The notes: a model not told the origin generated them from the sequence alone. A DNA stretch of 64,000 bases from Ruditapes philippinarum (GCF_026571515.1 NW_026866638.1:1-64000); one strand, 5' to 3'; positions 10,533 through 40,054 are shown, counted from the first letter of the stretch. Numbers and translations: made by a program.

Positions 10533-10679
10533 GAATATTATTAAGTTACATGGTATCTGGAACTTTAAGATTTGATCTTTGACTAAATAATCCCACAGGA
10601 ACTGGTGTTATGTCATATAATTGTATACATTGTATACAATTTAATGGTATCCGTGGTCGAGGTGTTAGAGTCGATGACT

Positions 10680-11998: not shown

Positions 11999-13758
11999 AT
12001 GGAGAAGGTTGAGATTGAATATATAAGACTGAATATTGGAGGCACAATATTCAAATGTTACAGGAAAACTTTAAGTACATTTCAAGAATCAAAGCTGCAT
12101 AACCTTGATAAAGACAAAGATGATTTTGATAGTGAACACAATGAATTTTATTTTGACCGAAATCCTTTGTTGTTTGCCTATATTATTGATGCCTGTCGTA
12201 AAGGAGCTATTCATCTACCAAAAGACATTTGCGGGACTACTTTTAAACAGGAACTGGAATTTTGGAATATTCCACTAGACAAAGTTGCTCCTTGTTGTCT
12301 AGAAACTTTATATCGAAGCAAAGATGACATCGACACAATTGAAACGTTGATAACACACGAGGAACAGACGTCTGTAATTGAATTAAAACAAGAGCGAGAG
12401 AAAATAAGTTTTCAAACGAGACTTTGGTTGTTTCTGGATGATCCAAGTTCGTCAAAATTGGCGCAGGTATTATACGTTGCACTGTGTGATTTCTTTATAA
12501 CAGGTTAAACTAGCACTTTATGCCTGTCGTTTTTAACTTACCAATAAAATACAATCTTTTTATTTTTTGTTGTGTGATATACTATAGGTTCAGACAAAAA
12601 ACGCAAACAGCGAGTTTGTATTTTAAAATTTTTAATCAATGTGCTTGTTGTATGCCATGCTGATAATAAATGCGGTGATAATGATCTTTTCATGATACAT
12701 GCACCAATACAATAGATTTTTGTATTGAAACTTAAGTTAGGCGGATGATCGAGTTACAGGTATTTTGTTATTAATGTCGGTTTATAGAGGCATTTATTTT
12801 TCTTTCTCATTTTGCAAGTATTTACTAAACTTTTAACTATTAATTAGCAACAAAAATGTTTATCCCTTGTTTTACATTTTCAGTAGAATAAATAGTGTTA
12901 CTATCTTTTAAACAGGTATGGAATACAGTTATGTCTCTACTTGTTGTTGTATCTACATTCATAGATGTGCTATCAACAGTATCAGCGTTTCAACAAAATT
13001 TCACAGAGGCTGAAATCAGGTCTTTAGAGAAAGTTTCAGGTCTACTAAGTCAGGGTAACAAAACAATGGAGAAGCTTGTAACAATGAAACCAAAAGATTA
13101 TCTCTTCTACATCATTGTTGCATGTCATGTAGTTTTAACGTTAGAGTTTTTGCTGTGTTTCATAGCATGTAAAAATAAAAGGTCTTACATGCTTTGTTTC
13201 ATACGTATGAGCACCTTAGTTGGGTATACTTCATTCTGGATTATGTATGCTCTCTATATTAACCTCGCATACATTGAATCGTGGATCGTTATTACAGTTT
13301 ACTTATTCCTCTCTTATTTACAAATCGCAAAAATCGCAAGATTGTTTTATTTTACCAAACGTATACCAGCATTTGCAATTATGGGGTTAACCTTTAGGTC
13401 GTCTATTCATGAATTTAAGATTCTGGCGTTCTTATTGGGTATTCTAGTTACTATTTTCGGCTACTTCTTCTATGCAGCCGAGGTCTTTTATAATCCTAAA
13501 ATGTCTAGCATACTTGAAGGAATTTATTGGGCTTTGATTACTGTGACGACCGTGGGATACGGTGACTACGTTCCGAAAACTGCTTTCGGTCACGTGATTG
13601 CCTCTGCCTGCGCAGTGGTTGGTATACTGGTTCTTGCACTGCCCGTTGGTATAATAGCTTCCAATTTCTACAAATTCTACAACTATCATGGGTACTCTAA
13701 GAAGCACATAGAAGCTATGAGGGAAAACCATTCCGACAAAAATTTAACACGACTGTAA
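11999..13758 (+). CDS. Shaw/Kv3-like potassium channel, paralogue 1; join(11999..12466,12916..13758), 436 aa
   Basis: Exon 1 is the T1/BTB domain (LNIGG, FYFDRNP, HLPKDIC-X20-CC, LWLFLDDPSSS). Phase-0 GT-AG intron (gcgcag/gtatta ... aaacag/gtatgg). Exon 2 is S1-S6 with YWALITVTTVGYGD and LALPVG. Confidence 0.93.
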
Positions 13759-16700
13759 TCAATAACTTATCCTAGTAGCTAAACTTGTGTTTGATTACTT
13801 TCGTCATAACAGTTTTGCAGAACCATTCCAACGCTACACATATTGATTACGAAATAAAAACGCCATTTTCGGTCCAGTCTGAAAAGATTAATTCAAAATT
13901 TTGCAGCTATATTATTTTTCTTTTTTATTAAAAAACCATGGAAGTAACAACATATAGTTTTTAACTTATGCAGGAACTTGAGAACAAAATCAAGTGTAAA
14001 TAATCCCGAGAAAAATTGATAGTTAAATATAAATTTGTGACACTATACCGTCAGGTGTTAAGTCTGTGCCTCGGGCAGCTATGTTTTTCATCGATTTTGC
14101 CAGTAACGGTTTAGAAGTTGCAATTTAATGAAGATTACTAAATCAACAGATTTTGTGCATTGAGAAATTGTGCATTTTGATAGTACGTTATATAATTGTT
14201 AAATAAAATTTTGTATTGAATTAGTTTCATGTTCCTTTTCAAGTTCAGTGGTTTTCCCAAGGGAAAAAGTACTGTTTCTATTAGGACAATGATATATATT
14301 GATATTGTAAAAGTCTCATCAACAATAGCATCATGGGTGTCTCTAGCGAATTGGATATATATCTGCCTGGAGGCTAATTTTGTTGCCATTTCTCTTGATG
14401 TACTAAATTATTGAAACATACCTACAAATTTCTGCTATATAGTAACGCATTAAGTTGATCTTACCATTAGCAATTTAACCAAATGATAGTTGTCAATCTT
14501 TCGATTATTTTCTCTCATAGCTATGTGCACATTGATTTACATTTGGCATATATATTGATAATGGAAAAAAAAAACAATAATTATTATTGATTGTGAGTTT
14601 AAATTCACAGAAAACGGAAATAATATTAAGCAACAGAGTCGATCAATAACTACAAATAATATCACTTAAACCTGATGAAAATGGAAAACATATTTATATA
14701 TCTTTAGATATTCTTTATAGATCCAGGTAATAAGAAAAGATTTTAAATTGGGTTTGCCCTTTTTTTTCCAAATTTTTATTTTTTATAATTTTTATAATTG
14801 ATTTTTACAAAAAATTGAGTGGCGTGTATTTTTGTCATAAATTCAGAAATAATGAATTTAAAGTATATTGAAAAATAAAATGAAATTTGAATTCCAATTA
14901 TAAATTATAAAAATTTTTAAAGTTTCCAACAAGTTTATAAAAATTTTTATGACGTTTTAATTTTTTTGAAATAATAAAACATTGATTATTTAAAAATAAA
15001 CTTTAACTTAAAATATGAAATATTTTAAAAAACATTGATGATTTTAAATTATTCATTTATGTTCGTATTTTCATTGTAAACATTTTGTTTTCATATTTTC
15101 CGTATTTTCACTGGTGTCTTGGCGGACTACTTTCTTCTAAATTCTGCCAATACACAAAGTTAAAAAGGATTTTTTCAAATTATAATGTTTAAAAAGAGAA
15201 AAGGTATATAATGAACATGAAAGTTTTTTTTCGATTGCTGCGGGATTTATTTTCACCCTTTTGAAAATTATCATATTTCACACTTAGTCTAGTGAATTAT
15301 TTATTTTCATTCCACTCGATGAAAATGAATTTTGTATTTATAGAAAAAACTTGATAATTTGAATAACCTCTATATGTTCTGCTGTGAAATTGATCGGTCT
15401 TTATCACATTATTGATTATCAGTAAGGTTCCATTGAATGTAAAATATGTTATGAAATACATAATTAAAGTATATATCTTCATCCCTTGTCATATGTAAAC
15501 AAATAATGAAACTAATGTAATATATTGTTTTGTTTGCTTTTTGCAATGTAAGGTACCTGTGATTGACCTTTTTTGTTACTGTTGTAGTTTTATTTAATGT
15601 TTCACGTGATGACGTAAATAAAATAGTACATGCAGTATAATCGTGACTTTGTCCTGTTTTGTTCCTTTCTACAGCTACTATGTTCATTTAAATGCTTTAG
15701 TTTAGGACAATTCTAGACATGCAAACTATTTCGCGTGCTATAAAAGATCTTGGGTGTTGAATAATAGTGTACAGTATGTAATTCAGATGCGCATTAATAT
15801 ACATTAAATGACGATTGCAGTAAGCCTATGTATTAATCTGCGCTGCACTGTTAAGTAACAAAAATGCGTAATACACGGAGAAGGCAATGAGAACAGCGAC
15901 TGAAATGTTGTGAAATAAAACACGGTTATGGCCGTTTTTGTTGCTCCGCGCTATTTGTATTTACAATTTATCGTCAATTGACCCGATTTTTATCAATTAA
16001 TTCCTTCGATTAACAGTTGAAAATAAATTTGGAATAAAAAATTCCTTCCGATTTCTATTCATATATTGGTTTACCCTTCGGAGATTCGCAGTATGTCTTA
16101 TTTATGAATTAGAATGGGAACAAATTTTACGACTCCACCGCTGGGACGGCAGTATAAAAGACAAAACAAACAAATAAACTCAAATTCGGTAATTTATTTT
16201 TTACATTTGTATCTTCTACAGAAAATTATTAATTATTTTGAAGTACACAGTGGGTTATTATGTATTTAAATGATGTACATGAATTCGAAAGCCATGAATA
16301 AAATAATGACCTTAACATTGCAAAAGTCCGAAAATCTATTTAAAGAAGTAGGTTATATAATTAATGAAACTGTTATTCGTGTAAAAAACGAACTGGAAAA
16401 TTTTCCAGGAAATGAAATGCAAACATATTCAAACAATAAATTGCACTTAAAAAATAGATAGGCCATTTTTACGAATTGTTATATCATAGTATCACATCCA
16501 ATATTAACATTTGTCCCCTTTTGTTTTTGGTTTTCTTGGTTTCCTTGTATGTCCCTGGCTTTCATTTTTTTGGCCATTTTTAACCCGTCAGAAAAGAACG
16601 AACAGTTTTGTTCAACTTTTTAAAAGTCGTTTTTATGTTTACAGTTTAAACATTAATATAATATTAAAACCTAACTTGTTTTTGAAGTTTTTTGTTACCA

Positions 16701-19166
16701 AAATGGGACCCAATTTCCGAAAATTTGCTTTTTAAATGAAAAAAAACAACGTTTAAATTGGTAGTTTGATTTTAAATGTTTAAATTTTTTAATAATTTTA
16801 ATTTGAAAAACAAAATTTCGTCCCGTTAAGAGTTTTAAAATGGTTTATTTTGTAAGGAATTAAAAAACTGGTGGGTTTGTTGGGCAGAAGAGTTTTTTTA
16901 AGAAATTCAAAAAAAAAAGTTGATTTGACCCAAAATAAAAATCAATACGTTTTTGTCGGTACCAAAGAAATTACCGGACAAAAAACTTGGAAATCTTCAA
17001 TTTTAAAAAATTTAAATAATTATTCAAAAAAACCCCATTTATAGGAACTATGTAAAAATAATTTCTAAAACTATAGTTTGGTATTTATTAAATATTAAAA
17101 AAATTTTATATTTTTTTATAAAAAAGAAAAGTATCTTTAATTTTTTTTTGAATTTTAAATCTTCTGTCTTTAAATGGTTAGCAATAATTGAAAAAAGAAC
17201 CATGTTGGGACATCTTTCATTTCACATTACATTTAAAGCAAGGTTTGTAGATCTTTTTTATTAATTTTCCATTACCAATAAGCATCAAGTAAACATAATT
17301 TGGGCCCTCTTTCCCAAAAAGACATTTCAAAACCCCAAAAGTAAAGTTTCAAATTTAAATTTAAATTTTCAAACTCCGGAAAATTACAATAGTAATAATA
17401 ATGAAAAACCCTTCTAAAGTAAGGTAATTTTTGGTAGGTAATCTTTTAATTTTAAAAAAGCATTCTTGATTTTAATGCCTTTTCGCAAACATTTTTTTAT
17501 TTAATAAAACCCAGGTAAATTTTTGAATATAATATAAAACAGCAAATTTCTTTCTTTCTAGAACAATGGATTAAAGGATTTTTTAAAAACAAACTTTTTT
17601 TTTGAAATTTTTGGCCATTTATCCTATTTCTATTTTTAAAGTTTTGAAATCTTTGGTAAACCTAAGATCCTTGGTTGAAAAGCAAACATTTTAAAATACG
17701 AATTTATTCCACCTAACTTTAAAAAAGTCCAAACTTTACATGGCAAGCCCCCCAAAGCCCCGTTTAGCCTGGTATGGGGAAAGGGAACCAAAAACTTACA
17801 AGACTTAAGTCCTTTTGGTTTAATCATACCCAACCCCGGGCACTCGCTCCCGGGTGGAATAAAAAATTTAAATTTCAACCGGGGCTTTTCGGATATCACA
17901 AGGGATAGTTTTTTCGCTTCACAAAATTATTTTTCAAAAAAAACCTTAATTGGGAAACCCTACTTTTGCCGGCAAAAAAACCGGGATTTGGTAATTAGCC
18001 CTAAGCTTTCCCCCGGGAAGAGTATTAAATAGGCAGACCCCTTTAAATACAATGAAAATGAAGGGCAGGTTTCTAAGCCCCGGGAAGGGTCAATTTTTTT
18101 CTTTCTTTTTTTGTATTTACAATTTAGTATCCCATGTTCCCTTTGTAAGGGATAAGGTTTTAAAAATAATTTTTTTTATATTATTTGGAACAATAGATAA
18201 TATTAAATAAAAGTTATGTATTTTAAAGGGTTTAAACAAAAAACGGGTTTTCATTTTTTTATCGTCCCTCTTTTTTATAGGGGCTTTGAAACCGGCCTCT
18301 TTGGGTATAAGAAGGGGGAAGGCCCCTAAGTAGAAAAAAAGGGTCTCGGAAAGAATGGAATGGGTGGGGTGGGAACTATAAGTTTCCTAATTTTGGGGAA
18401 CCATAATTTTCATGGGAAAGTCCCCAATGGTAAATAATGTTCTTCCGGGTAAATTTTGGGGAACACTTTAAATTTTAAATGTAGAAGATTTTTTAAATCC
18501 ATTTCGAAATAAAGTGCTATAAATTAGCGATTCAAGTGAAAAGTTGTACAGTAAATTTGTTTATTTGCTAAAAGGGGTTTTTTAATTTAAAAAAAAATGA
18601 AAATTTTTGGTTTCAATTCTTTATTTTGATTCAAAATTTTTAAATCGTTAAATACTATCTAAAGTAGATAAATGATAACACATCGCCCAGTTCTACGTGG
18701 TCATACACTCCGAGCCAAACAAAGTTTGAAAAAGATTTAAAATAAAAATAAACAAATAAAATATTTGTAAAACCAAATGTTTATTATTCAGCGCTATATA
18801 CAACTAGCACATGTTTGCTCTTCTTCAGTAAGACCCAGTTAATCGGGCACGTTATTTTGAATACCAAAATGACAAACATACTTATATTGTCATGTGATCA
18901 ACTGATCATATCCGTGGTTGTATCAAAATTGTCAATTATTCTAAATTCTAAATGTGTTTAAATCACTGCAACCGAATGCCTCTGGTTGAATGTTGTTATC
19001 AGAATAGAACAGAACAGGTACTTTATTTTTGACTTGCACAATTATACATGTTATTACAGGTTCAATCAAACAAAAAATTTAGCTGTGTTATACATTATTC
19101 AGGTAGAACGTGTCTCACTGTTATTTAAGAGTTATGATTTTATACAAATCATATATTATCAATAAT

Positions 19167-21151
19167 CTATGATTTACCATGTGGACAAATAGTAACCTTG
19201 CCGAAAAGATTAACATGTTTCCGGGCGTACTTTTGATAGTGATAAAATGTGTGAAACGACGACGCAATTATACCTATTGGTAGAGCAAGAGAAACAACTC
19301 CACAAACAGCACATGTTGCTGCGATCACATGACCAAAATCAGAGTTTGGGATATAATGGCCATACCCGACAGTGGTCAACGTAATCAATGCCCAGTACAT
19401 TGCGGTGAACATATTATTGAATTGAGAATTTTGAGTAAATTCGACAACGTACATTACAGTGCCGAAAATACAAACTAACAAACATAGCATAAAGAGTAGA
19501 ACTTTGAATTCGGGAATTGAAGATCGGAATGTCAAGCCCATGATATTGAAAGCTGGGACACACTTTGACAAGTAAAACAGACGTGCTAACATCAATATAA
19601 CCAAGTGTTTGATCACAATATACGATATCATTTTTACAACAGTATCTAGTTTGGATAGATTCAATTCCATTATAAAGGAAATCCAAAATGCCATATAGCC
19701 AATTGCGACAGAAAGGCGCGTGAAACACTTGCTGAATGACTTTTTTTCCGGGCAGACGACAAAAGTTACCAATAACTCGAAAGTGAGTATGAAGTGAATT
19801 ATAAAATCTGTGTAAACAAAAATTGGACTTCGTTTTGCAATCTTGTCGAAAGTTGCGTTGCTCAATTTGAAGACACTAGACATGCTCTTGATTACCTCCA
19901 TTTCTGATTCCGTAAATTCAGCACAAAATTGTTTCAAAGTAGACATTGCCATGGATATAGTTGATAACACTATTAGAAGTGAAACAAATACTCCCCATAC
20001 CTGCAAAAATTAAAAAAAAAAGCATAAAGTATGTGTACAGACAAGTGATTTCAAAAGTTTATTATTTCAGAAATTCACGACTTATTATTTCTAAATTAAC
20101 CAAGCCTTTTTTAAGTGAGCGCTTTATATGTAAGTGATACATAAAATCTTTGCAAGGTAGTGTCTTTGCTTGAAGAAAATGGTAAAATGTACAGACATGT
20201 CATTAATATGGATCATGTAAAAAAAATAAACTTCTAATAGAATAGCATGTATTTTCCACCTAAAATATTTTCTGATTTCTGCTTTTATATAGTGTACATT
20301 AAGATTATTATGTGTAAATTATCTCGGTGTAAGCAAGCTTTTGTCATGTATAAAATTCAAAAAATATGTTAAACCTAGATTTAGGTCCTCTCGTCCGTCC
20401 TAGAATAAAAAAAGGCGTTTACTAAAATGTACACGAAAGGTTTAATGATTTGAATGTAAACATTTTCCATTCTTGTAGAATAAAAATACAGTTGAAGATG
20501 ACTTCCGAATAAAGATCACATTGTAAATAAATGCAACTCTACAACTACCCTTAATCGATCAAACAAAACATTGTTACCTCCAAATAATGACCACTTATCT
20601 ATAAGGGACATGTTTAGTCACTCCTTTGTTCACAGGTTTGACTATACATTATAAGTCAAATAGTAGTAACTTACATAAGCATATTTGGATGAATCTGGTT
20701 CGTCAAGAAAAAGCCATATCCTCTGCTTTAAGTCCACGTCCGGTTTAAGTAGAAGGCATGTATTCGTGTTTTGTTTGATATTTTGAATCAACTTCTGCAT
20801 TGTTGATACGTCTTCCTCTGATTTATGTAAGGCTTCCCAACAACACGGAGCAACAAAACGCGGAGAAATCTTCCAAAATTCAAGCTCTTCTCTGAATGTT
20901 GTTCCACACATATCTTTAGGTAAATGTATCGACCCTTTTCTTGATGCGTTAAGAATATGGTAAAACGTTAATGGGTCTCTGTCGAAGAAATACTCATTTG
21001 TGTCTGCCACATAATGGTCGGCATTTTCGTCAAGATGTGCAAGAACAGAATCTGGAAATGTTTTAAGTGTTCCAGCATAACATTGGAAAATAGTCCCTCC
21101 TACATTCAATTTGATTATTCCTTTAGAATTAAAACTGACAGCCTGCTCCAT
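19167..21151 (-). CDS. Shaw/Kv3-like potassium channel, paralogue 2; complement(join(19167..20000,20675..21151)), 436 aa
   Basis: T1 with HLPKDMC-X20-CCW. Same phase-0 intron (gcttat/gtaagt ... ttgcag/gtatgg). Pore YWALITLTTVGYGH and S6 LALPIG. Confidence 0.93.
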
Positions 21152-22699: not shown

Positions 22700-22880
22700 A
22701 TGTATTTATTTAAGCTCGATTGCGAAACAAGTTCTTGCAACTTATATTAATCACGTTTGAGTCCGCTTCCTGCCAGTACTGGTGTCATATGAAGAAACAT
22801 GGTCGTGACCCGAGTAGGGCTCGAACATATGATCTCTGGGTTGCGAGGCAGACACCTTAACCACTAGGCCACCGCTCCTC
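22700..22880 (-). mobile_element. tRNA-derived SINE
   Basis: The minus strand has A box TGGCCTAGTGG and B box GTTCGAGCC, then a non-tRNA body (tatgacaccagtactgg..caggaagcggactc). A 3' fragment of the same family lies at about 30695-30758. Confidence 0.75.
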
Positions 22881-23738
22881 TTGTAGGGAAGGACTGCAAT
22901 TGTTGTGTTGATGTAATTCAAGGTAATTCAATTAACGATTTCCATAATAAATATTGAGGAATCAGTGTGTTTGATTCTGGTATGGTAACTCAGTCAACAC
23001 TTGTCATAAATATGGGAGGCTACCATTTAGTACCACTACAGTAACATCCAAATGTAGACATAAGGCATTTGCTATAAATACTGGTGCAAAATATTTTAAG
23101 GGGGATTCAGGTTTTAACTTTCGGCACATAGTAATGGAAATATTTAGTGACTTGTAAACCGTGTGTGAGAAAGAAAAACACAGTAGATTTAAGAATATAT
23201 TGTAAATACGAAATCAGCGTTACAATAACTACACCGACTTAGTTACTATAGCCAAGATTCCCTCTAATAATTATGAGGAGCAAGTGGTTTGAAGCCGGCA
23301 ACTTAATCAACTCTGCCACGTACGTAGACCACCCACAATGTAATTTGTATGAACTCCCCTCAAGTGCAAGTTATTTGAAACGGATGTCCACTGCGATATA
23401 ATATGTTGCCCCTGTGAAGTCTATTCGGTTCAGATTTGTACATCTTCAATTTCATTTAAGTTACAATGAAATATTTTAGCTTTTAACATAGTCTTTACAG
23501 GCATGCACATGAACAGGCATGTTTCCCCTTTATTTAAACACATGCTTAATCCAAAAATACTTTTTTTTATAATTATTTCTAATTGTAATGATTTACAATA
23601 AAACAATTGTTTGTTACTATACAATTAACAACAACGCAACATGTAATGTATTTGCAAGACACGTAAAGGTAAAATATTGTATTTATAAGCTTTTTCTGTT
23701 AGTCTAAAATTCAAAAATACGACATAGGTGCCCTCTTG

Positions 23739-25863
23739 TTAAATAGTTTTCATTGGTTTCAAACCTACTTCTTCAAGCAGACTGTTGGATTCCGATGGAA
23801 CAGTTTTGAATTCCTTTAATTGTGCAGGCAATAGTTCTTTATATCGTGAATGCATCTTTATGTACTTATAAAAGTTATAGTACTTGTAAAATTTCGATAC
23901 GATTATTCCAACAGGCAAGGCGATAACAAGCACTCCACACACTGCGCATGCTCCAGCAACCACATGACCAACAACTGTACTTGGAACATAATTACCATAG
24001 CCAACCGTCGTCAATGTAATCAACGCCCAGTAGATGGCAGTAAATATGTTGTCTATATTAGAATCATGCAACAGTTCAGCGGCAAATAGAGTATAGCCAA
24101 ACACGCAAACGAGAATTCCAAGGAGGAAAACTAAAATTGTCAGCTCTTGTTTAGACGAAGCAAATGTTAAACATATTAGTCGGAAAGCAGGTACTCTTTT
24201 TGTGAGATAGAATAGTCGAGCAATTTTGAAAATGGATAGGTAGCCAAACATCAGCTGTATCATTAACACATTGACAGATCCAATATATTTTACATTAAAA
24301 TAAATTGTAAAAGAAATCCAATAAGACATATATCCAAAGCAGCTCACAAGTCGCATAAAGCAAACAAATGCCCTTTTGTTTCGGCAGACGACAAAGCTCA
24401 GCACAAGTTCGACTGTCAAGATAGTATGGAATATTGCATTTGTGTATAAAAGAAATGTAAGTGGTTTAATAGATGCTAGTTTCTCTATTGTTGAGTTTTT
24501 GAAGTTCAATGCGTCTGCAAACTTTGTCAGAAGTTTCATCTGTTTCTCCGAGAAATTTTCTTGAAACATTTTCACTGTTGACAGGCAATCTGCAAACAAG
24601 GCTGCCAGTATGATAACAGATATGAATATACTCCAAACCTGAAATAATTGATGTTTACTGTAGAACAAACGTCAATAAAAACGTTATGTATATAGAGGAT
24701 ATTGAATGAGTGTAGTTTAATACTAAATTTATTGAACGAGTTGAATAAAATTATATTATGCGAGCCTCTGGCGAGCATAATATTGTTGTATTCAACGAGT
24801 TCAATAAATTTAGTATTGAATCTACACGAATATAATATTCTACTTATCACATATATTAGATAAGGACAATAAAATGTTAAAATGAGTAATTTTTCAATGA
24901 CGCGCTTATACAGTAGTGTAACGCTAACATGCTATGTTTCTATATAGCGCAAATGACGTCACGCCAAAGTGTTATTACACTAGTGTAATATCGTTTTTAT
25001 TAAATGGCTTTATTACACTCCTGCGCCGCGGTTTATGTGATAAAATTGTTTATTTTGGATGCTGACTAGCAAAAAAAACAAGAATAAAAATCAACAAAGC
25101 AAAGGCAACGTTCACAGGACGCGGCCCCCGACACACCCAAGCATGGCACGCAGAAGGCACCAAACAAAAACCCGGAGCGGACACAAGGGTGAAGCCCGTT
25201 TCAATTAATTCATTCTTATTTATGTATGGAAATCTTTTGAAACATTTAAATATCGTGATACTGGTATTCTTTACAAAACCAAAAGCAGGTTACTTATTTT
25301 GATGAATTAACTGTTAGTATAAATCAATAATTTTGGTTGACAAAGTGTAACATTTGAAGCATGTTTTCACACCAGATCGTGCATTTCCTTACCAAAGCAG
25401 ATCTAGAAGATTTCGGCTCTTCTAAAAACAACCACACTTTTGTTCTGAAGTCTCTTTTGTCTTGAGCTCTCAAGGTTGAGATTGGTGATTGCTTAAAACG
25501 TTTATTTAGTAAGTCCACTGTTTCAATGACATCTTCACTTCCATAAAGCGCCTCCCAGCAACACGGAGCAACATGGTGCGGAGGAATTTCCCAAAAATCC
25601 AGTTCTTCTTTGAAAGAAGTTCCGCAAATATCCTTTGGCAAATGAACAGCCTTTTTCCGGAATGAATCGACAATGAAAGAGAATAAGATTGGATTTCTGT
25701 CAAAAAAGTATTCGTTTTCTTCAGAATCAAATGAATCCTGTTCTTTGTCAAGATTTGCAAGTTTTGATTCCGGAAATGTTGAAAGCGTTCTCTCATAGCA
25801 CTTAAATGTATTACCCCCAATATTAAATCGAACGATTTTCTTATTATTTATAAATTGTTCCAT
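23739..25863 (-). CDS. Shaw/Kv3-like potassium channel, paralogue 3; complement(join(23739..24638,25393..25863)), 456 aa
   Basis: T1 with HLPKDIC-X20-CCW. Phase-0 intron (gctttg/gtaagg ... tttcag/gtttgg). Pore YWALITLTTVGYGN and S6 IALPVG. Confidence 0.93.
24690..25044 (+). mobile_element. Hairpin-forming non-autonomous element in the intron of Kv paralogue 3
   Basis: Palindrome of about 150 bp (aatactaaatttattgaac ... gttcaataaatttagtatt) followed by a second inverted pair ttatcacata / tatgtgataa. Confidence 0.7.
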
Positions 25864-27285: not shown

Positions 27286-27439
27286 ACTCACGTTTTCGTA
27301 CTCAATTGTTTCATCTTATACAATAATCAATTAAAATAGTAAACTGTTATTGATCATGTGCTTATTGAACCAATAATGTTTAAATGCAAGTAAAGTGGAC
27401 TTGTCAATATGTGTAGGAAGTGACTTCAAACATACGATT

Positions 27440-28247: not shown

Positions 28248-28589
28248 TGATGTACATAATATTCATGCGACCATCTATCCAAACTTTTAGTCCAATGTGT
28301 TTTAAACAAGGGACACTTTATACAAAAAGAAACCCATTTTTAAGTACAATTTCTTGTCTGTACTGTTTCTGCAATTATGCAATTACATAAACACAACTCA
28401 AAAAAAGAAAAGGAATTAAGACTTAGGAAAGTAAAATTTTGAATAAAATTTCCAAATTATTTGCCAATTCGCTTGCATTGACCTGTTTATTTCTGGTCTT
28501 CATCCTTGCCATATATAATTACCTAATTATAATGCAAAATTGCCAGCATTAAGCCCCGGTTAACAAATTTATACCCGATATTTCAAATA

Positions 28590-29540: not shown

Positions 29541-32053
29541 GGCATGCTCTGGAGTGCGGGTAACTAATACCCGCACTCCAGTTAACGCACTGTGCATGTA
29601 TATGTATACGATTTAACCCTGACACATTTTCAACAGAAAGGTCCCCAAACTATGATACAAACACTCTTTGTAGCATTATTATGCAACCTTTATTATATTA
29701 TCTCTGTCATAGCTCTGTTTCCTCAAGTCTGCCAATTAAGCTTAGACTTATGTTACTCTCGTACCAAAAACAGGGCTTTATAGAATTCTGCTAACGTGTT
29801 TTATTATGATTAAATATTAGGTGAATAAATAGGACCCACAGGTGCTTGAAACATACTTTTTATGTTCTATATTGGCTATATACTATAATAAGATGTATGG
29901 TCTCCAAAGGAACAAAAACACCATGCGGAACAAACAAGAACACTGCTGAAAGAATCGACCAGATCATGGTTACCTGTTTGTGGTCGCCATTTGAAAGCAT
30001 CTTTCCAAGTGTTACCGCTTTTTATTTCATGAAAATCCCTCAAATAGCAAAACAAAGAGGAAAAAATTCACAAAAAACATTATTTTCAATTCATGTCATT
30101 CTCGACGTCCATACCTTTATATCTTAAAATACAACTATAGGCTGATTATGTAAAATATGTGATTTTGTGACTAGCGCCTGTAATAGGACCTGTCTTGTAG
30201 CTTTGTACTTCAAAATCAAAACACTATTTGCAGTGTTTTATTTTCTTTGCATAACGAATATTTGCGTGTACTAATATAATCGTGTACTTAAAGTTTTAAA
30301 GAGGTGGCAGGGGCGGGATTAGGTGTCTGTGGCCAAGTGGTTCAGTTCATTGACCTTAAACAACTTGTCCTCGACTCCTGTGAGGAACTTTGAATTATTT
30401 TAAGTGAGGATGCTAGTCCGTTTAAGCCGAGACGATTATTTGTTTTATGATAAATATAGGGGGATTTCAAAAAATGTAAAGAAAACAGTAGTACAATAAT
30501 TGTGAGGGTTTTTTATACGATACAGACCGTTCTTGTAGCTATAGATAAGTGTCTTTGTGCAGTGAACTGACTTAGATAATGTTTACGCATTTTGTCATTT
30601 TAACTGTGTTATAGTAAAATTGCTTTTCATTATCATGCAATATTATTTAGCAACACAGCTCTAATGCGATATATTTTGCAAATGCATTGGCTTAAACATA
30701 TGTATTTAAGCTCAAATGCGAATCAAGAACTTATATTAATCACTTTCGACTCCGCTTCGAGGCATTATCCAAGCATAGCTCTTGTTTAACTAATGGCTTA
30801 AAGGAAATATAATTTCCAAGCCATTTTACAAGGTTAGATGTGAGTTTTTATCGATACAACAAAGTCTCGGGAGAGTTATTATAACAGTTCAGTCATGTTG
30901 AAGTATATTGATATTGCTGTATTGTTATAGTCACTCAGCGTTTGTAATGGTAATTAAGCCTTGATTGATAATGAAAGGGTTTTAGAAAACATATCATAAA
31001 GTTTCATTTCGTGACAAAAATTAAACAGGAATTGGTTTAAGGTTTATTCTGAGATTTTGTAGTCACGGAACTAGTTATCATACAAATAGTTATTTTCAAA
31101 TGTTAAAAATGAATATATCAATCTATTTTATGATAGTTTACAGAAGAAACAAAAAAATCGTTTTAGCAGGAGCTTCCTCTGTATGGTTAGAATAGGGTGA
31201 TATGAAACTATAGATGAAATGTTGTTCAATGGTATTGTAATCATCTGGGGTATTTCTATATGACAATTCGTTTTGCAATGACAGTAAAATAGTTGACTTT
31301 GATGAAAAAATATCGTTAAAAGGATTGCTTCGATCACGGACTTTGTTTTTGCGACTGACAATTATCGCTTTTTTGTGGTAATAACACTTATAACACATGG
31401 ATATAACTACATGACATTGTTTGTTGAATAATTGAACATGTAACACACAAATATAACTATATGACATTTAATGCTTGCTTTCAATGGAGTGGTTAGAATT
31501 ATATTCGGAATATTAATTCATTTTTCCTAACCTTTGTGAAAAACCGACGACAAATTGAGTAATACAATATCCAACACATTTGTGTTTTAACATTTATAGT
31601 TTTATATTATATGACATGTTAAAATATTTCAAGATGAGTTTATACATGCTTGAATCATACTTGAATCAATTTTACGTAATTGAAATATTGAATATTTAGG
31701 AGAGATAGAAATATTATCACAAAGTAACGTAGTATCACTCTTCAAATATACTTTTCAGTCAAAAATAAGAAAATGCCTAATATGAAAAGCTGTGACACTA
31801 AATGTACTTAAATTTTTTTGCATTTAAACTTAATATACTTTTTGAATCAGAATTAATGTGAGTAATTGATTTTTTGATTTCATTCGATATTTCTATAAGT
31901 GAAGTGATAACAGATTGTTATTCAATATGTGTACATAAAAGCACAAACTTAGAGTAGGATGGACAAATTTTGAAAAGGATACGTGAACTAAAAATATACA
32001 TCATTCGTGTATTCTAACATTTCAGTTGAAAGAACTCCTTTTTGAGTATAATT

Positions 32054-33546
32054 ATGGAAAAGTTGTGCAATATGGACAGAACAAATAACCTGCGAATCAA
32101 TGTAGGTGGAACTATTTTCGTTTGTCATTCACATATTTTTAAATCGTTTCCCGAATCGTTTCTTGCAAATCTTGAAAAACAGGAGCCAAACTATAAAAAT
32201 GATGAATACTTTTTTGACAGAAATCCACATATATTTGCGTACATTCTCGATGGTTTTAGAAAAGGTTCAATACATCTGCCAAAAGATGTCTGTGGAACTA
32301 CTTTTAAAGCGGAGATGGAATACTGGGAAGTGTCAAAAGAACACGTAGCTCCGTGTTGTTGGGAAGCGTTATACAAAAGTGACGAGGATATTTTGACCAT
32401 GCAGAAACTCATCAATGATTGTGAGAAAAACTCCAGCTTCCTAATGATGCAGCAAAAAGATCAAAGCATAAGAAACAGATTATGGTTGTTTCTTGATGAG
32501 CCGAGATCCTCGAAATATGCTATGGTAAATATTGCGACATAAGAATATTCTGTTGAAAAACATCATAAGTCATACACTTTTCTAAAGCATATCAATGCAG
32601 TTGCTATCAGCTTTTAATTATTTTGTATTTCTTAACATAGATTTTTTTTTTAGATTAAATATTTTAATTATTTATTTCCCTGTAAGGAGGTAACAAAGAT
32701 ATTTAATTTCAAAACATTTTATTTCAGGCATGGGCTGCGTTTGTGTCTGTGTTGATTGTTGTGTCAACATTAACAGAAGCGATGACGTCAGTGCCAATAT
32801 TCCATGTAAATTATACCGAGTCTGAACAGAAAATTATTAAAAAGGCAAGTGAATTCTTGAACTGGGATGAATCTTCGTATGAAAAAATGATGACTATGAA
32901 ACCACAACCATATCTGAAACTAGCAGATATTGTTTGTCATAGCATTATAACTCTGGAATTCATTATAACCCTTGTTGTGTGTCACAATAAAATGACTTAT
33001 GTGTTTGATTTCTCACGCATATGTTTAATAATTGGATATTTTTCATTTTGGTTGAAATTAATACTTCAGCTTGAAGAAATAAGTTTGAAATCAGACATAG
33101 CTATAAAAATGATAACAGTGTTTGCTTATTTGACAGTTCTTAAGTTGGCGCGTTTGTTTTATCTAGCAAAGCATATTCCAGCATTTTATGTCATAAGGTT
33201 GACAATGTCCTCCTCAAAGACAGAACTGAAAATCCTTATGGCCATACTTGCTATTTTAATATGTGTTTTTGGGACCTTGATCTATTATGCAGAATATCCA
33301 AATTCAAAAATATCAAACGTATTCATTGGTATGTACTGGGCTTTGATCACTGTTACCACAGTTGGATATGGTGATTACACTCCTCAATCAGTCGCAGGTC
33401 ACGTGATTGCCGGAGCATGCGCATCATGTGGCGTATTGATTCTTGCTTTGCCTATTGGAGTAATTGCTTCGTCTTTCTATACGTTTTATAATTGCAACAA
33501 ATATGGCACGAAACACTACGACCACATTAAAGTTCGTCATAATTGA
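32054..33546 (+). CDS. Shaw/Kv3-like potassium channel, paralogue 4; join(32054..32524,32728..33546), 429 aa
   Basis: T1 with HLPKDVC-X20-CCW. Phase-0 intron (gctatg/gtaaat ... tttcag/gcatgg). Pore YWALITVTTVGYGD and S6 LALPIG. Confidence 0.93.
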
Positions 33547-35392
33547 AAAGCCAAGTTTATTTCACAGTTATTAAAATTTTTTACGTATATTATAGAATTA
33601 TTAAAACTAAATCTCCCTTAAAGACATAGAGCTAAAAGCTCTCATTTACTTCATCAAAGTGTATATTTTTGTATAAGTGTTCATAATTGGTTTTAAGTTT
33701 AAGTGTACGAGTATATTTGAGTGTCATCATCCAATAGAATAAGCGTTATCTACTACACGTAGTAAACGTTTTCAATCATTTTTTCTTTACAATATTATGA
33801 TATCAAAAACATCGTAATGTTAAAAAAATATCAACAAAATTTCTTATGATTATTTGATAAGTTTCCTATGATATATTTGATAAGAGCGACAGTCCTATAT
33901 ACTTTATATAGAAGCAAATACGTAGATGCAAGCGGAGTAGAGTTTGTTCTGATCAGTATGAACGATTAAACTTTTGTTGGATGATTTTTATAATGATGAA
34001 AGTTCCTTAAAAATAACACTATAACTTTTAACTCAGTTCTTTTAATTCTATTATTATATAGACATTGTGTTGATGTATTAATGTATATTTGTAATAGAAA
34101 TAAAAAAAAGTGTTGATATAAAACATATTGTTCTTTTGTGATTATTTCTTTATCTTAGATGTTCAACTAAAGTGTGTGTTGACTTCTCTGTGTTATAAAT
34201 GGTCATTGCATGACTTTCAGGACAAAGATAAAAGTTATTCCCAGGTAATAATAAATTTATTCTTCCTTTCATTTATTTGTTGCTAAATCATTATCTGTTT
34301 TTCTCATCAAAAGAATGAGTCATATAAAAAAAAATACAAATACGCGACCTATTGGCTGTACTTTTGACTAAAACTACAGTACACAATATCCAGGCTAATA
34401 TTCAAAATCAATTGGAAATTGTTCTAAGTCATTGGATAATTAACTATTACGGCCAAATTTTCGATTCGTAATCATTTTCAACCACACTCTCGTCACTTTC
34501 GTCATTAATATAGGTTTAAAATTGATTCGTTTAGAGACTTGCAATAATTATGTTGAAACGTTTCAAAATGTTAAGATGATATTTCAGATTAAACTACACT
34601 TATTCACAAGTCATTCAAAATAATAAGTCGTATGAATTTGGACATAACTTTGAACGTGCTAAACAAACTGACCAACATTTAGATGTTTCAGATCATAGCA
34701 ATACTGATATACAATAAATAAAAGAATCGTATAGTCATACAAATCATTTTTTCAATCTGAAATTAGGTTTTACTTATTTTATATTATAAAATGTTGACAT
34801 TTTCGTCACATTATTAATACTCTCGATCAAACGCGTGTCTGAAGGAATATTTTTGCCAAGTTCATTTTTTCACTTTGTTTCCAGATTTTTATACTGCACA
34901 ACAGCAGGTGTCAAGTGCTGTGTGGCAGCTGTAAAAAGTTGCCCCATACTTCACTTCAGTGTTGTTATGTTTTTCTGGTCCTTCTGGATCATTGATGCCA
35001 GCACTATTAAGTGTTCGGAATTGAGTACCGCTTAAGCCGGTGCTAGGGGGCGTGAGGGATGTTGCACTTATTCATTATCCCTTATGTACAGACTCAATCA
35101 AACCGAGTCTGCAATTTTCATGTTATTTTGTTGTAAATAATGCTTTCGAGGGATCACTTTGTTTCCAGATTTTAAAAGATAATAGAAAATGATAGTCTAG
35201 GAAGGTTTGCAAAATTATTTGTCACATGTTCACATCCTTTCAAGAAGGAAAACCACTGCAATGAGTTTGTTGATTGTATTCGATCGTTCATCAGATAATT
35301 GTTATAGAACACTTGATTCAACGTCATTGAGAATTTTTCTTACCAGATATATTTAACTTTAAAGGTCAATTTTAGTAATTGTCAGTCTCAAT

Positions 35393-35478
35393 AAAAAATG
35401 TGCAGTCTGACCGGGACTCGAACCCGGGACACCCGGAATACCGTACCGCGGCTCTACCGACTGAGCTTTACGGCCGCT
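35393..35478 (-). pseudogene. tRNA-like sequence (tRNA pseudogene or tRNA-derived repeat head)
   Basis: The minus strand has D-arm GCTCAGTCGGTAGAGC, T-arm CCGGGTTCGAGTCCCGG and a following T-run, but the acceptor and anticodon stems pair poorly. Confidence 0.6.
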
Positions 35479-35950
35479 TAAACATATTCCCCCGTAAACA
35501 GTGAACAGTTTTCAAGAAAGATTTATTACTAGATCTATTATTATTATTATTATTATTATTACCATTCAAGTTTTGTAGTTTCTTCTGAGATGATTTGGAT
35601 AGTCCTGTACTTCTGGCTTCGAAAGCTTTAATGTTTTTGTATTCTTGATAATAAATAAATCATGTGCATTAATGGATAAAGACTATATTTCATTGATAGT
35701 TTGCCTACTTCTAGGCAATACAGCAGTAAACACTCTTTTCAACCCCAACAGTTAGAAACATCGCGATATCTCGCGAACCACAGATAAAATTAAACATGTA
35801 TACTTTTGGGTTAATTGAAAATAGAAATAAAACAAAATAAAGTAAATTTACTTTTTATAATATGTAAAGAAATAATTTATTTTTAGATAAATACTGGATA
35901 GAAATCACATAATTTATTTCTCATATGCCAATTAGTGTGCCAATTTACCA

Positions 35951-36473
35951 CATATTAAAGGTCATCTCGGGACTACGGTATTAACCATATTGTCAGGGTG
36001 GCGGCGGAGTGCTAAACTATCAGACATATTAGAGGTCATCTCGGGACTACGGTTTTAACCATATTGTCAGGATGGCGGCGGAGTGCTAAACTATCAGACA
36101 TGTTAGAGGTCATCTCGGGACTACGGTATTAACCATATTGTCAGGATGGCGGCGGAGTGCTAAACTATCAGACATGTTAAAGGTCATCTCGGGACCACGG
36201 TATTAACCATATTGTCAGGATGGCGGCGGAGTGCTAAACTATCAGACATGTTAGAGGTCATCTCGGGACTACGGTTTTAACCATATTGTCAGGATGGCGG
36301 CGGAGTGCTAAACTATCAGACATGTTAGAGGTCATCTCGGGACTACGGTATTAACCATATTGTCAGGATGGCGGCGGAGTGCTAAACTATCAGACATGTT
36401 AAAGGTCATCTCGGGACCACGGTATTAACCATATTGTCAGGATGGCGGCGGAGTGCTAAACTATCAGACATGT
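35951..36473. repeat. 74-bp tandem repeat, 7 copies
   Basis: ggtcatctcggga recurs at 35960, 36034, 36108, 36182, 36256, 36330 and 36404. Copies are nearly identical and have no spacers. Confidence 0.97.
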
Positions 36474-38295
36474 CTGTATGTTTATGCTCAAATTTAGGAT
36501 TTTATTGCTGCTGTTTTTTTTATTAAAGTAAAGTTTAAATATCGTGTTTAATATCGTATCAGATAGTAGCACTTTATTTATGCAAAATCCAATACGAGCG
36601 TGTCAGCACCGTTTTTATTATGTAAATAAGACTAATTGTGTTAGATTCCTAGCACAATTATTAGTTAGCTTTACCTATTCCATTGACGTAAGCGTATACG
36701 CCCTATCACAGTATAAAACGAGTACTGATATGGACGTCATGGGTGTTTTCCCCTTTATGTTTAATGCAAACATCTGCGCAGATCTACACAGTCATTCGTC
36801 AAAGTATTCCTTCATACGGCCCTTCTCAACGTATGTAGTGCACACCATTCTTTTGCAGTCATCTGTGCTTGTGTAAAACACCACTTGTTCATCTCAACTA
36901 CAGACATAAAGCCAGCTTATTATCAGAATGTATCTAAAAAATATATATCTGTCATATAATTCTCTTTGTGAATAATGTACTAACATTTTCCAAATTGAAG
37001 CCTACGTTGATCATATATGAAAGGATCGCGTTCCAGGTCATCTATTGTATTAAATATTATTCTCCCCTGACACAATTTGGAATGTTATTAACGTAAAGCA
37101 CTCATTGTTTCTCTTCTGTAAAGTTTAACAATTAAATCATATTGAAGAGAGCCCTTATCATAGCAAATTCCACATAATCAATTAAATCAATATTTGTTTA
37201 GGGAAACTACTGAATAACGGGATTCAATAATATCTAGTCATTACTTAGAATGACAATGAAATCAACCAGGAGAGATTTTTCAGCATTGTATTAAACAGAG
37301 ATACATATGATCTAGTTTCTCTTTGTACAAACATTATCAGATCAAATATGAAAATAACGTTGTTAATTGGTATGTCATTATTTTGTTGATGACAAAGCAG
37401 AAAAGACTTAAAGTTATGATAATAATCATTTTATTATGATGAGAGTGAAGCTGTAATAACAAATGGTTTAATCATATTCTATTTGTCATATACAAAAACA
37501 CATTTTATATGACATTTTCAATACAAAAATGGATTAGATTGGAAGCAACTAAATTCTTATTGAAGTCTTTTCCCGAAGTAAGTTATATTGTGTTATTGCA
37601 AGACGCCTTGGATAAGGCGATAGATTTTATCATTTGTTGACGAAGAAAGTCATCTTAGTAACTATTATTACCGGCAGTCTAATTAACTGAAGCACTTTCA
37701 CGGTTCTTTTGGTGTGTCTCTTATAAACTCGGTATTTTGAGGCGTAGTGTAGGTCCAGTTTTAATGACAATGGGAAAATACAATATTAAAGTGGCAATCT
37801 TTAATCAGAACAGTGAAAACAATACCACAAAGATAGTAAAAACGTTTATTATAAAAATGTGAAATATAAAAAGGCATAAACTATTCGCCTAATAAAAAGT
37901 ATCGAAGAAATTGTTGAATAAAAAAGAATGTAAAGAAAACAAATACATTGCACATTCAAAAGTCATTTCCATATCCCATTATTTTATTAATTTTCTTGAA
38001 ACAGTGTCGAACAGATATCATATTTCAAGAATGGCAGGTACTAAAGTTAATCAACTAAGTCAACTTTCTACTTTATTTTTGTTTTTCTTGAGGGCTGGAA
38101 AATGTTACGAAAAAGACATGTGTTACTGCGTCATGTATTTCAAGTGATTTCTCCCATAATTTTTTACTTAAGATAGCATAATACAACCGAAGTCACTGTC
38201 ATAAGCACTATACATATACGTTTTTTCAACAATCACAGAATAAATGTTATTAATAATAAACAGGTGCAAGGTAAACTTTAAAAAATTAATATGTA

Positions 38296-40054
38296 TTATA
38301 AATCATTTAATTCAAGAATGCTGTTTTCATCTAAACTTATCTTTGATGCTTGGTCCCCATTAACTGATTGCGGCATGTTAACCTCCGTAATAGAGTTTGT
38401 CTTGATGTATGAGCAATAGTTGTAATATTTGTAAAATTTCGATGCAATAATTCCGACAGGTAGAGCAATAACTATCACACCACATACTGCGCATGATCCA
38501 GCAATCACATGACCGACAGTGGTAACAGGCACATAATTACCATATCCAACAGTCGTTAGAGTTATTAACGCCCAATAGATTGCTTTAAAAATATTGTTTA
38601 TATTAGGATTGTGCAGGAATTCGGCAGCGAATAAGAAATATCCATAAACAAAAACACATATACTTAGCAAAAAAACTAATATTTTCATTTCTTGCTTACA
38701 TGATCGGAATGTTAGAGTAATAAGTCTAAATGCAGGGATACTTCTAGAAAGATAAAAAAGTCGAAAAAGCTTCAATATAGAGAGATAGCCAAATATAACT
38801 TGTATAGTTACAACATATATGGAAGTAACATATCGTAAATTTAAGTAGATGCAGCATGAAATCCAATAAGCTACATATCCAAAACAAGCAATAACTCGGG
38901 AAATGCATTTGAAATAACTGTTTTTATTCGGGCAGACGACAAATCCGATAACAAGCTCTAATGTTAGAATGGCATGTAACATTACACTGATAAACAACAG
39001 GTATGCGTTTGGTTTCATGGCCGAAATCTTTTCCATTGTTGCATTACTGAAATGAACGGAATCAGCAAATTTCGCAAACACCATCATATCCTCTTCAGTG
39101 TGGTTTTCTTGAAATATATCGATAGTGGATAGAGAATCAGCAAGCAAAGCAGCCAGAATAAGGAATGATATGAATAAGTTCCATACCTGAAAACAATGTA
39201 ATATGTATTAAATTCACCTATAAGCATAACAAGTTCATCAATTCACTTCTTTGATTAAAAAAGAAACAAGGCAGTCGGGGTTCTGCATGAATATGTTAAT
39301 ATTAATCCTATAACGAATCTTACAAATAACAAATATGAAAGAAATTTCATGTTGGAAAATAACATACATTCATATCGCCACTGACTTTATAATAATAATA
39401 ATAATCTAACATGTAAACAGTATACTAGCATGTTCTTATTTACATATGTATATTACAACACACCGAATTTACAAATTGTGACATCCGTAGATATATTATA
39501 TATATAATTAAGTTAAAGACAAAGTATACCATAAAAGGAAAACAATCAATGTTACAAAAATAATCAATAAATTTTATTCTTACAAAAGCTGATCTGGAAG
39601 ATTTCGGCTCATCCAGAAAAAGCCAAAGTCGTGTCCTAAGACCCGATTTTCGGTCGTGAATACGGCTCCAATTTTGACCTTGACGAAAATTTTCCAGCAG
39701 CAAGTGCACTATTTCTATATCACCTTCGCTACCATAAAGTGCCTCCCAGCAACACGGAGCAACATAGCGCGGAGGTATTTCCCAGAATTCTAACTCCTGT
39801 CTGAAAGTTGTTCCACATATATCCTTTGGCAAATGTATTGCTCCTTTTCGGAACGAATCCAGGATGTATGCAAACAGTATTGGATTTCTATCGAAAAAAT
39901 ATTCATTTTTTTCGTCGTCATATTCGTCGTTTTCTTTGTCTAAGTTAGCCAACTTCGAAGTAGAGAAAGCAGTAAGCGTTTTTGTATAGCACTTGTAAGT
40001 TGTTCCACCGATATTTATCAGAGTGAATTTGTTTTTAATTGTATGTTTATCCAT
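38296..40054 (-). CDS. Shaw/Kv3-like potassium channel, paralogue 5; complement(join(38296..39186,39584..40054)), 453 aa
   Basis: T1 with HLPKDIC-X20-CCW. Phase-0 intron (gctttt/gtaaga ... tttcag/gtatgg). Pore YWALITLTTVGYGN and S6 IALPVG. Confidence 0.93.

What the first reader, a model, noticed from the sequence alone, without database searches (positions are those of the whole stretch)
12916..39186. Invariant S2 histidine plus a new S1 acid: possible proton/metal site or gating-pore conductance
Seen: all five have His six residues before the conserved S2 Glu (CHVVLTLE, IHFILTFE, FHTILTVE, CHSIITLE, LHAILTLE). Four of five have D/E in S1 where canonical channels have the Phe of FCLET (IDVLST, ADCLST, TEAMTS, ADSLST), while the LET Glu is lost. 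By eye the His aligns to Shaker I287. Established, from memory: I287 and F290 line the hydrophobic plug, His substituted at I287 gives proton current through the Shaker voltage sensor, and loss of outer S4 arginines opens omega pores. Inference: these S1-S4 domains may sense pH or Zn2+, or conduct protons, which would be relevant to a calcifying or estuarine animal.
Basis: partly seen in the sequence, partly recalled or inferred. Interest (0 to 1): 0.7.

Follow-up and report, generated by a model that had tools for sequence, protein, structure and literature searches.

The report
Clam potassium channels with rewired sensor
Five neighbouring clam genes encode Shaw-like potassium-channel subunits whose voltage sensor has lost most of its charged residues; the histidine and acid that were flagged are real but not invariant, and they likely brace a sensor parked in the 'on' position rather than carry protons.

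Summary
Five intact two-exon genes (T1 + S1-S6) carry His at Kv1.2 I230 (Shaker I287), and four carry D/E at F180 (Shaker F244). Three are identical to RefSeq 'Shaw-like' proteins of Ruditapes philippinarum; at least three are spliced in probable RNA assemblies.

'Invariant' fails. His is in 33 of 44 clade members (0 of 150 other Kv-like rows) and is replaced by Asn/Gln/Tyr/Val/Leu, including in the closest Mercenaria relative of gene 4. The acid is in 28 of 40 and does not co-vary with His.

The K+ filter is intact.

Best reading (0.5): weakly voltage-dependent K+ subunits with a sensor parked 'up', His and acid forming a polar brace around R4. pH/metal gating 0.2; omega/proton current 0.12, kept alive by S4 double gaps in all five genes and the flatworm N.at-Kv3.2 precedent. 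No paper on this clade was found. Interest 0.5.

The parts
11999..12466 (+). Gene 1 exon 1: T1/BTB domain with HX5CX20CC motif
   Evidence: matches RefSeq P0013 except for a 21-aa insert at the junction; junction not seen in reads
12916..13758 (+). Gene 1 exon 2: S1-S6; D at F244-equivalent (12964), His (13126), R4 (13339), filter TVTTVGYGD, gate PVGIIA
20675..21151 (-). Gene 2 exon 1: T1
   Evidence: whole gene identical to P0017; intron of 674 nt skipped in contigs of runs X2 and X4
19167..20000 (-). Gene 2 exon 2: S1-S6; Met (no acid) at 19950-19952, His 19794-19796, S4 K-V-M-R-Y, filter GYGH
25393..25863 (-). Gene 3 exon 1: T1
   Evidence: whole gene identical to P0231 = XP_060575756.1
23739..24638 (-). 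Gene 3 exon 2: S1-S6; Asp 24588-24590, His 24426-24428, filter GYGN
   Evidence: S1-S4 model pLDDT 87, pTM 0.78
32054..32524 (+). Gene 4 exon 1: T1, best solved relative is Shaw T1 (3kvt)
   Evidence: whole gene identical to P0353 = XP_060575758.1; 203-nt intron bridged by an X4 contig
32728..33546 (+). Gene 4 exon 2: S1-S6; Glu 32776-32778, Asp at E283-equivalent, His 32938-32940, filter GYGD
39584..40054 (-). Gene 5 exon 1: T1
   Evidence: 397-nt intron skipped in an X4 contig
38296..39186 (-). Gene 5 exon 2: S1-S6; Asp 39136-39138, His 38974-38976, filter GYGN

Best explanation
These are Shaw/Kv3-derived potassium-channel subunits with a conserved K+ filter and a voltage sensor that has lost most of its charges, likely parked in the activated ('up') position, with the S2 His and S1 acid predicted to form a hydrogen-bond and salt-bridge brace around the one fixed S4 arginine rather than an ion path. 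Shown by sequence (Shaker numbering): only 2-3 basic residues remain at R1-K5; K374 is Tyr/Phe/other, D316 is small or hydrophobic and R297 is lost; N313 becomes Arg; E293 and R371 (R4) stay; I320 becomes Tyr, F324 Trp, F290 Leu/Ile/Met. Inferred: the new S3 Arg takes over E293; Tyr packs where the K374-D316 pair was, which fits only the up register; with no free inner acid, R3 and R4 would find the down state unfavourable. R4 then sits at the level of H287, Y320 and an outer acid (E283 or the new acid at 244). Predicted behaviour: shallow or no voltage dependence, current through the central pore, as homomers or as modifiers of canonical Shaw. Modest pH tuning through the His is possible but would not be the family's defining job.
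For: Conservation order: Y320, R4 and W324 are 40 of 40, R/K313 40 of 40, K374 non-basic 40 of 40, D316 non-acid 40 of 40, against His 33 of 40 and acid 25 of 36. Caveat: 13 of the 45 rows before de-duplication were admitted by R/K313 and Y320; in the 32 tree-defined rows both are still 32 of 32 and His 26 of 32, rank 17 of 91 helix columns. Four further core-type rows keep Y320, R4 and the three losses, two lack R313, none has His. Net charge of the inner cluster is 0 in 38 of 40, as in canonical Kv (E,R,N,D,K) and in the sister clade, which keeps K5=Arg, an acid at 316 and usually R297. In Shaker, K374Q fails to express and is rescued by D316N or E293Q (PMC3347040): the clade carries the same paired loss. 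At least one outer acid is present in 34 of 36 rows. His is replaced by N5, Q2, Y2, V1, L1 of 44; Asn is the commonest residue there outside the clade (37 of 150) and is one base from His. The filter reads xTT[VI]G[YF]G in 40 of 40. The fold is a normal Kv monomer and S1-S4 bundle. Loss of one S4 Arg makes TPC1 voltage-independent (PMC13095418).
Against: No recording exists. R3 is basic in 25 of 40 and R1 in 25 of 40, so some gating charge remains. The gate is PxG, and Shaker P475G is closed at negative voltage and right-shifted (V50 about +45 mV; PMC2229584), so a standing current does not follow automatically. His is kept in three quarters of members across five named clam genera and absent outside, which a titration role would also explain. 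Acid/R1/R3/E283 associations (Fisher p 0.003, 0.07, 0.03) vanish under phylogeny: only 1 supported independent pair.
Confidence: 0.5

Rival explanations
1. The His is a titratable extracellular pH or Zn2+ sensor that gates the central K+ pore, as the extra S2/S3 acids do in EAG channels.
For: I287 is analogous to an eag ion-binding residue and is reachable by outside Zn2+ (PMC3149438). His is clade-specific: 33 of 44 against 0 of 150. Gene 4 and its relatives place E244, D283 and H287 together, and L002/P0003 add E247.
Against: I287H alone showed little or no Zn effect; the partner position F324 is Trp in 40 of 40 and the A359-equivalent is mostly hydrophobic. His is lost at least 5 times, mostly to Asn/Gln/Tyr. 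His and acid are uncorrelated (21 of 36 have both; p=1.0).
Confidence: 0.2
2. The S1-S4 domain conducts protons or cations (omega current) on hyperpolarisation, like flatworm N.at-Kv3.2 or zebrafish HCNL1.
For: S4 double gap in 30 of 40 rows and in all five window genes; a double gap suffices in Shaker (PMC10651576). F290 is Leu/Ile/Met in 40 of 40. Shaker I287H leaks protons. The acid is at the Hv1 V116 position. A natural Kv3 omega channel exists (PMC2443804). The residue after GYG is N/H/R in 17 of 40, which might silence some pores.
Against: It needs S4 to move down, yet D316 is gone and E293 has a new Arg partner (inference). R4 is fixed, and Arg at the fourth position blocks Hv1 (PMC7306766). 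New fixed bulky Y320 and W324 could reseal the crevice. The filter is conserved, whereas HCNL1's drifted. Hv signature residues are absent. The acid is missing in 12 of 40. Bivalves have up to eleven Hv genes (PMC10377628).
Confidence: 0.12
3. They are 'silent' regulatory subunits that work only in heteromers with canonical Shaw; the sensor changes tune the heteromer. This concerns assembly and can coexist with the best explanation.
For: The gate is P[IV]G[IV]xx, not PVPVIV, in 40 of 40; 42 of 43 known regulatory subunits have atypical gates and such subunits arose in cnidarian Kv3 (PMC6279357). Post-filter Asp is replaced in genes 2, 3, 5. Read depth over exons is low. A canonical Shaw-like gene with PVPVIV is in the genome (L026).
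Against: The PxG gate is fixed in the core and sister clades rather than drifting. Shaker P475G and V478A are functional homomers, and KvAP has Gly there. The T1 Zn motif is intact in 5 of 5 window genes and 13 of 13 full-length relatives.
Confidence: 0.25
4. The His and acid are neutral hitch-hikers in decaying paralogues.
For: Broken copies exist on another contig; the site is variable among Kv-like proteins.
Against: All five frames are intact, 41-62% identical in S1-S6, with strict conservation at many buried sites; relatives with His occur in Mercenaria, Mactra, Mya and Dreissena; spliced contigs exist for genes 2, 4, 5.
Confidence: 0.06

Closest known systems
Kv3/Shaw channels (Shaw T1 3kvt; human Kv3.1 7phh)
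   Same: T1 best hits (E 3e-22 and 7e-20), HX5CX20CC motif, six-helix fold (top Foldseek hit 7phh), TTVGYG filter.
   Different: 2-3 S4 charges; K5, D316, R297 and F290 lost; new S3 Arg/Tyr/Trp; PxG gate; Tyr at W434; two-helix S1-S2 loop; C-terminus of about 40-60 residues.
N.at-Kv3.2 (flatworm, natural omega current; PMC2443804)
   Same: Shaw-type protein with non-basic residues at S4 charge positions and a normal-looking pore.
   Different: Its His is in S4 (R1), not S2. Whether it keeps the inner acid cluster was not checked here.
Shaker mutants I287H and K374Q+D316N
   Same: The clam proteins carry natural equivalents of both.
   Different: Here they come with F290L, N313R, I320Y, F324W and R297 loss, a combination not found in the papers read.
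Hv1 and the D112V/V116D mutant (PMC3840923)
   Same: Acid at the V116-equivalent in four of five genes, with Ser/Ala at the D112-equivalent.
   Different: Full pore domain; no RxWRxxR; Arg at the fourth S4 position; no Phe at F150/F290.
HCNL1 (PMC7306766)
   Same: Six-helix channel with a gap in the S4 Arg series; gene 2 has Met at R3.
   Different: HCNL1 has a long Arg series, keeps the S2 Phe and has a degenerate filter.
EAG/hERG S2-S3 divalent site
   Same: A polar ligand at the I287 (hERG D460) position.
   Different: The S3 partner position is Trp, not an acid.
Regulatory (silent) Kv subunits (PMC6279357)
   Same: Atypical S6 gate, lineage-specific expansion.
   Different: Gate is fixed across the clade; T1 self-incompatibility unknown.

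Membership tests
Kv3/Shaw voltage-gated K+ channel | N-terminal T1 of Shaw type with HX5CX20CC (motif recalled) | tested here: met
Kv3/Shaw voltage-gated K+ channel | S1-S6 Kv fold and K+ filter | tested here: met
Kv3/Shaw voltage-gated K+ channel | S4 basic ladder with F290/E293/D316 charge-transfer centre | tested here: not met
   2-3 basics; F290, D316, K374, R297 lost
Kv3/Shaw voltage-gated K+ channel | PVPVIV gate | tested here: not met
   P[IV]G[IV]xx in 40 of 40
Kv3/Shaw voltage-gated K+ channel | Transmembrane tree groups with canonical Shaw | tested here: inconclusive
   quick, midpoint-rooted tree with long branches; clade sits among other divergent Kv-like rows, apart from L026
Kv3/Shaw voltage-gated K+ channel | Depolarisation-activated K+ current | not testable with these tools
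   needs recordings
Hv proton channel | S1 Asp at position 112 | tested here: not met
   S/A/T/V at that column; the acid is one turn out, at the 116-equivalent
Hv proton channel | RxWRxxR S4 motif and no pore domain | tested here: not met
Natural omega-current Kv (N.at-Kv3.2 type) | Gaps at S4 charge positions | tested here: met
   double gap in 5 of 5 genes, 30 of 40 rows
Natural omega-current Kv (N.at-Kv3.2 type) | Pore-independent inward current | not testable with these tools
   needs recordings
HCNL1-type proton channel | Degenerate selectivity filter | tested here: not met
   xTT[VI]G[YF]G in 40 of 40; HCNL1 lacks it
EAG-type divalent/proton site | Ligand at S2 I287-equivalent | tested here: met
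   His
EAG-type divalent/proton site | Ligand at S3 F324-equivalent | tested here: not met
   Trp in 40 of 40
Regulatory (silent) Kv subunit | Atypical S6 gate | tested here: met
Regulatory (silent) Kv subunit | T1 self-incompatibility | not tested
   no complex prediction was run; a pass would follow from likeness to solved tetramers
Regulatory (silent) Kv subunit | No homomeric current; modifies partner | not testable with these tools
   needs co-expression

The most novel reading that the evidence does not exclude
A clam-specific family of Shaw-derived channels conducts protons through its S1-S4 domain, using a native S2 His (the natural Shaker I287H) and an S1 acid at the Hv1-116 position across a gapped S4: a new, independently evolved route to proton or omega conduction in a six-helix channel.
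Probability: 0.12. Interest if true: 0.8.

Novelty: new variant of a known kind. Interest (0 to 1): 0.5.

Why it matters
The clade is a natural experiment on voltage-sensor design. It carries, fixed by evolution, changes that biophysicists made one at a time in Shaker (K374/D316 double neutralisation, I287H, loss of F290, S4 double gaps), plus a new Arg that keeps the buried charge at zero. A sister clade preserves an intermediate state. Expressing a few members would test directly whether such a sensor is frozen, senses pH or leaks ions. It would also show what a lineage-specific Shaw expansion does in clams. The proteins are already auto-annotated as 'Shaw-like', and the physiological link to calcification is unsupported.

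Tried and rejected
1. Co-variation of His with the S1 acid: none (p=1.0). Acid versus R1, R3 and E283 looked associated in raw counts, but the tree gives 1 supported independent pair, so no claim is made.
2. Placing His and Asp in 3D: two AlphaFold models were good but no coordinates were served. Both residues lie in predicted helices; orientation rests on homology and on PMC3149438.
3. Fold search of the isolated S1-S4: Foldseek gave no match at E<=0.001. VIA-align gave a tie of Cav, Kv3.1, Kv2.1, Nav and TRPC domains at Z 11-11.6. Hv1 was not among the 50 rows, which excludes nothing. The sensor state cannot be read from this.
4. 'PxG gate means constitutively open' was rejected: Shaker P475G is closed at negative voltage.
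5. Calcification role: no support; named members are from five clam genera including freshwater Dreissena, and the listed oyster, mussel and pearl-oyster hits are about 28-31% identical outsiders.
6. ESM Atlas: only generic Ion_trans clusters under 0.9.
7. Tissue of expression: run labels are coded; most RNA runs held under 0.2 of the words. Raw-read runs gave 0-4x depth on both strands and no listed exon joint.
8. Earlier scan notes: nothing.
9. The careful 93-row tree did not finish; the quick tree was used. No dN/dS was computed, as paralogues are too diverged and DNA of relatives was not held.
10. Campos et al. 2007 (I287H proton current) was not held; that the current appears on hyperpolarisation is recalled.
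11. The sister clade has no named member, so its taxon is unknown.

Full report
WHAT IS THERE. The window holds five two-exon genes, each a T1/BTB exon and an S1-S6 exon joined by a phase-0 GT-AG intron. The models give 429-456 residues without internal stops. Genes 2, 3 and 4 are identical to NCBI proteins named 'potassium voltage-gated channel protein Shaw-like [Ruditapes philippinarum]'; gene 1 matches one apart from a 21-residue insert at the junction. Contigs of runs guessed to be RNA skip the predicted introns of gene 2 (2 of 4 runs laid), gene 4 and gene 5 (1 of 4 runs). Genes 1 and 3 have no listed joint, and depth is low throughout. The genome has at least four more intact copies and two broken ones; some may be haplotypes. 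T1 is closest to Shaw and the predicted fold is a Kv monomer.

THE OBSERVATION. All motifs are present. Against native-numbered Kv1.2 the His is I230, the acid F180 and the lost Glu E183, i.e. Shaker I287, F244 and E247. His occurs in 0 of 150 non-family Kv-like rows, so it is a true clade mark. It is not invariant. The core clade (SH-aLRT 98, quick tree) had 32 rows with His in 26. Adding 13 rows and dropping 5 near-duplicates (over 90% identical) gave 33 of 40. Four further core-type rows lack it (not de-duplicated, only P0253 placed on a tree), for 33 of 44: N5, Q2, Y2, V1, L1. There are at least 5 changes on the tree. P0005, the Mercenaria sister of the gene 4 group (100/100), has Asn, while Mercenaria relatives of gene 3 and of two other paralogues keep His and acid. 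Asn is the commonest residue at this site outside the clade (37 of 150) and stands in the genome's canonical Shaw-like gene L026; Asn and His differ by one base. The acid is in 28 of 40 rows and independent of His (p=1.0 on 36 rows).

The sensor core is rewired, and more strictly than the His (Shaker numbering). K374, D316 and R297 are lost in 44 of 44; R371 (R4) and I320Y are fixed in 44 of 44; N313 is Arg/Lys in 42 of 44; F324 is Trp in 43 of 44; F290 is Leu/Ile/Met; E293 stays acidic. Thirteen rows were admitted by R/K313 and Y320, so for those two columns the unbiased count is 32 of 32. The buried cluster sums to zero in 38 of 40. A sister clade of unnamed records keeps Arg at K5, Glu at 316 and usually R297, also summing to zero in most rows, and has Tyr/Phe/Asn/Cys at the His site. 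S4 has two basics in 30 of 40 and three in 10. The filter is conserved in 40 of 40; the gate is PxG; W434 is Tyr; the residue after GYG is N/H/R in 17 of 40.

HOW IT MOST LIKELY WORKS. In Shaker, K374Q is rescued by D316N or E293Q (PMC3347040, passages), so the paired loss is a viable, charge-balanced design. I infer that R313 replaces K374/R297 as E293's partner and that Tyr fills the K374-D316 space. That packing belongs to the up register, and moving R3/R4 inward would meet no free acid. R4 then lies just outside the plug with H287, Y320 and an outer acid; at least one outer acid is present in 34 of 36 rows, and genes 1, 3 and 5 have the S1 acid but have lost E283. Replacement of His by Asn/Gln/Tyr fits a hydrogen-bond role better than titration. 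The predicted result is a weakly voltage-dependent K+ subunit conducting through its central pore. Whether it opens alone is unresolved: Shaker P475G is functional but right-shifted (PMC2229584, passages; PMC2233862, passages), and atypical gates mark regulatory subunits (PMC6279357, passages). Sequence facts are shown; state, gating and assembly are inferred.

RIVALS. pH/Zn sensing (0.2): the site is accessible and analogous to the eag site, and gene 4 clusters E244, D283 and H287; but I287H alone is Zn-insensitive and the partner F324 is Trp (PMC3149438, passages). Omega/proton current (0.12): all five genes have a double gap (PMC10651576, passages), I287H leaks protons in Shaker (second-hand in PMC6754559, passages; the original was not held), the acid is at Hv1 position 116 (PMC3840923, passages), and N.at-Kv3.2 is a precedent (PMC2443804, abstract and section 5 part 1; PMC3982104, passages). 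Against it are the fixed R4, the lost inner acid, the conserved filter unlike HCNL1 (PMC7306766, passages) and the many Hv genes of bivalves (PMC10377628, passages). Silent subunit (0.25) overlaps with the best reading. Drift (0.06) is unlikely. One passage of PMC13095418 gives the TPC precedent.

MEMBERSHIP AND NOVELTY. By T1, fold and filter these descend from the Shaw type, but they fail the canonical sensor and gate tests, so I file them as a Shaw-derived variant, not as ordinary Kv3 channels. They are not Hv, HCNL1 or EAG-site members. Named members come from Ruditapes, Mercenaria, Mactra, Mya and Dreissena; many members are unnamed, and the word-based searches have limited reach, though the index-free profile search showed the same clade boundary. 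Searches aimed at this family in print (listings only; also 33, 40) returned no paper on it. The library lacks most subscription journals and no supplements were read, so gene lists there could mention it. The HX5CX20CC motif, the Kv1.2-to-Shaker offsets and the voltage range of the I287H current are recalled.

VERDICT. Real feature, overstated as invariant; interpretation possible but not the best supported. New variant of a known kind, interest 0.5; 0.8 if pore-independent proton current is found (probability 0.12).

Noticed in passing
window 46600-54696 (-): Multi-exon ABCG/white-like transporter gene: ABC_tran and ABC2_membrane pieces.
   Followed up: partly
window 61696-61848 (+): Possible first exon of a CRAL-TRIO-like lipid-binding protein, by eye only; no Pfam hit.
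   Followed up: partly
window 40042-40325: 145-bp tandem duplication (99%) that repeats gene 5's start codon, giving an upstream ATG at 40199 with a 14-residue frame; real or an assembly artefact.
   Followed up: partly
genes 2, 3, 5 exon 2: Residue after GYG is His or Asn (Arg in Mya and Dreissena relatives), with Tyr at the W434 position in all members; may alter inactivation or silence the pore.
   Followed up: partly
all five genes, S1-S2 loop: About 40-residue loop predicted as two helices plus a short strand pair; N-glycosylation sequons seen in genes 1-3 and conserved Lys-Pro. A possible extracellular cap.
   Followed up: no
P0027-P0036, P0089, P0335-P0348: Sister clade of unnamed records with His at the S3 N313 position, Glu at D316 and Arg at K5: an intermediate rewiring; three or four members have His in place of R4.
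   Followed up: partly
G000 C10829 (L010, L020), C1718 (L002, L003), C6752 (L009): Further family copies, two broken and two nearly identical: birth-and-death expansion or haplotypes.
   Followed up: partly
G000, 56 matches: Large Kv-like expansion in this genome with many other atypical gates and sensors (e.g. L018, L022, L023 with Lys at the D316 position).
   Followed up: no
window 14644-15591, 22702-23175, 24598-25545, 34870-35500: High-copy repeats (very high read depth, loose ends), one inside the gene 3 intron.
   Followed up: no
window 9355-11647, 35950-36473, 47427-48041, 57062-58254, 62654-63982: Tandem arrays of 21, 105, 74, 32, 161 and 168 bp units; several long ORFs there are repeat artefacts.
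   Followed up: no
window 12466-12916: The RefSeq model of gene 1 has 21 extra residues at the junction compared with the splice sites shared by the other four genes; unresolved by reads.
   Followed up: partly
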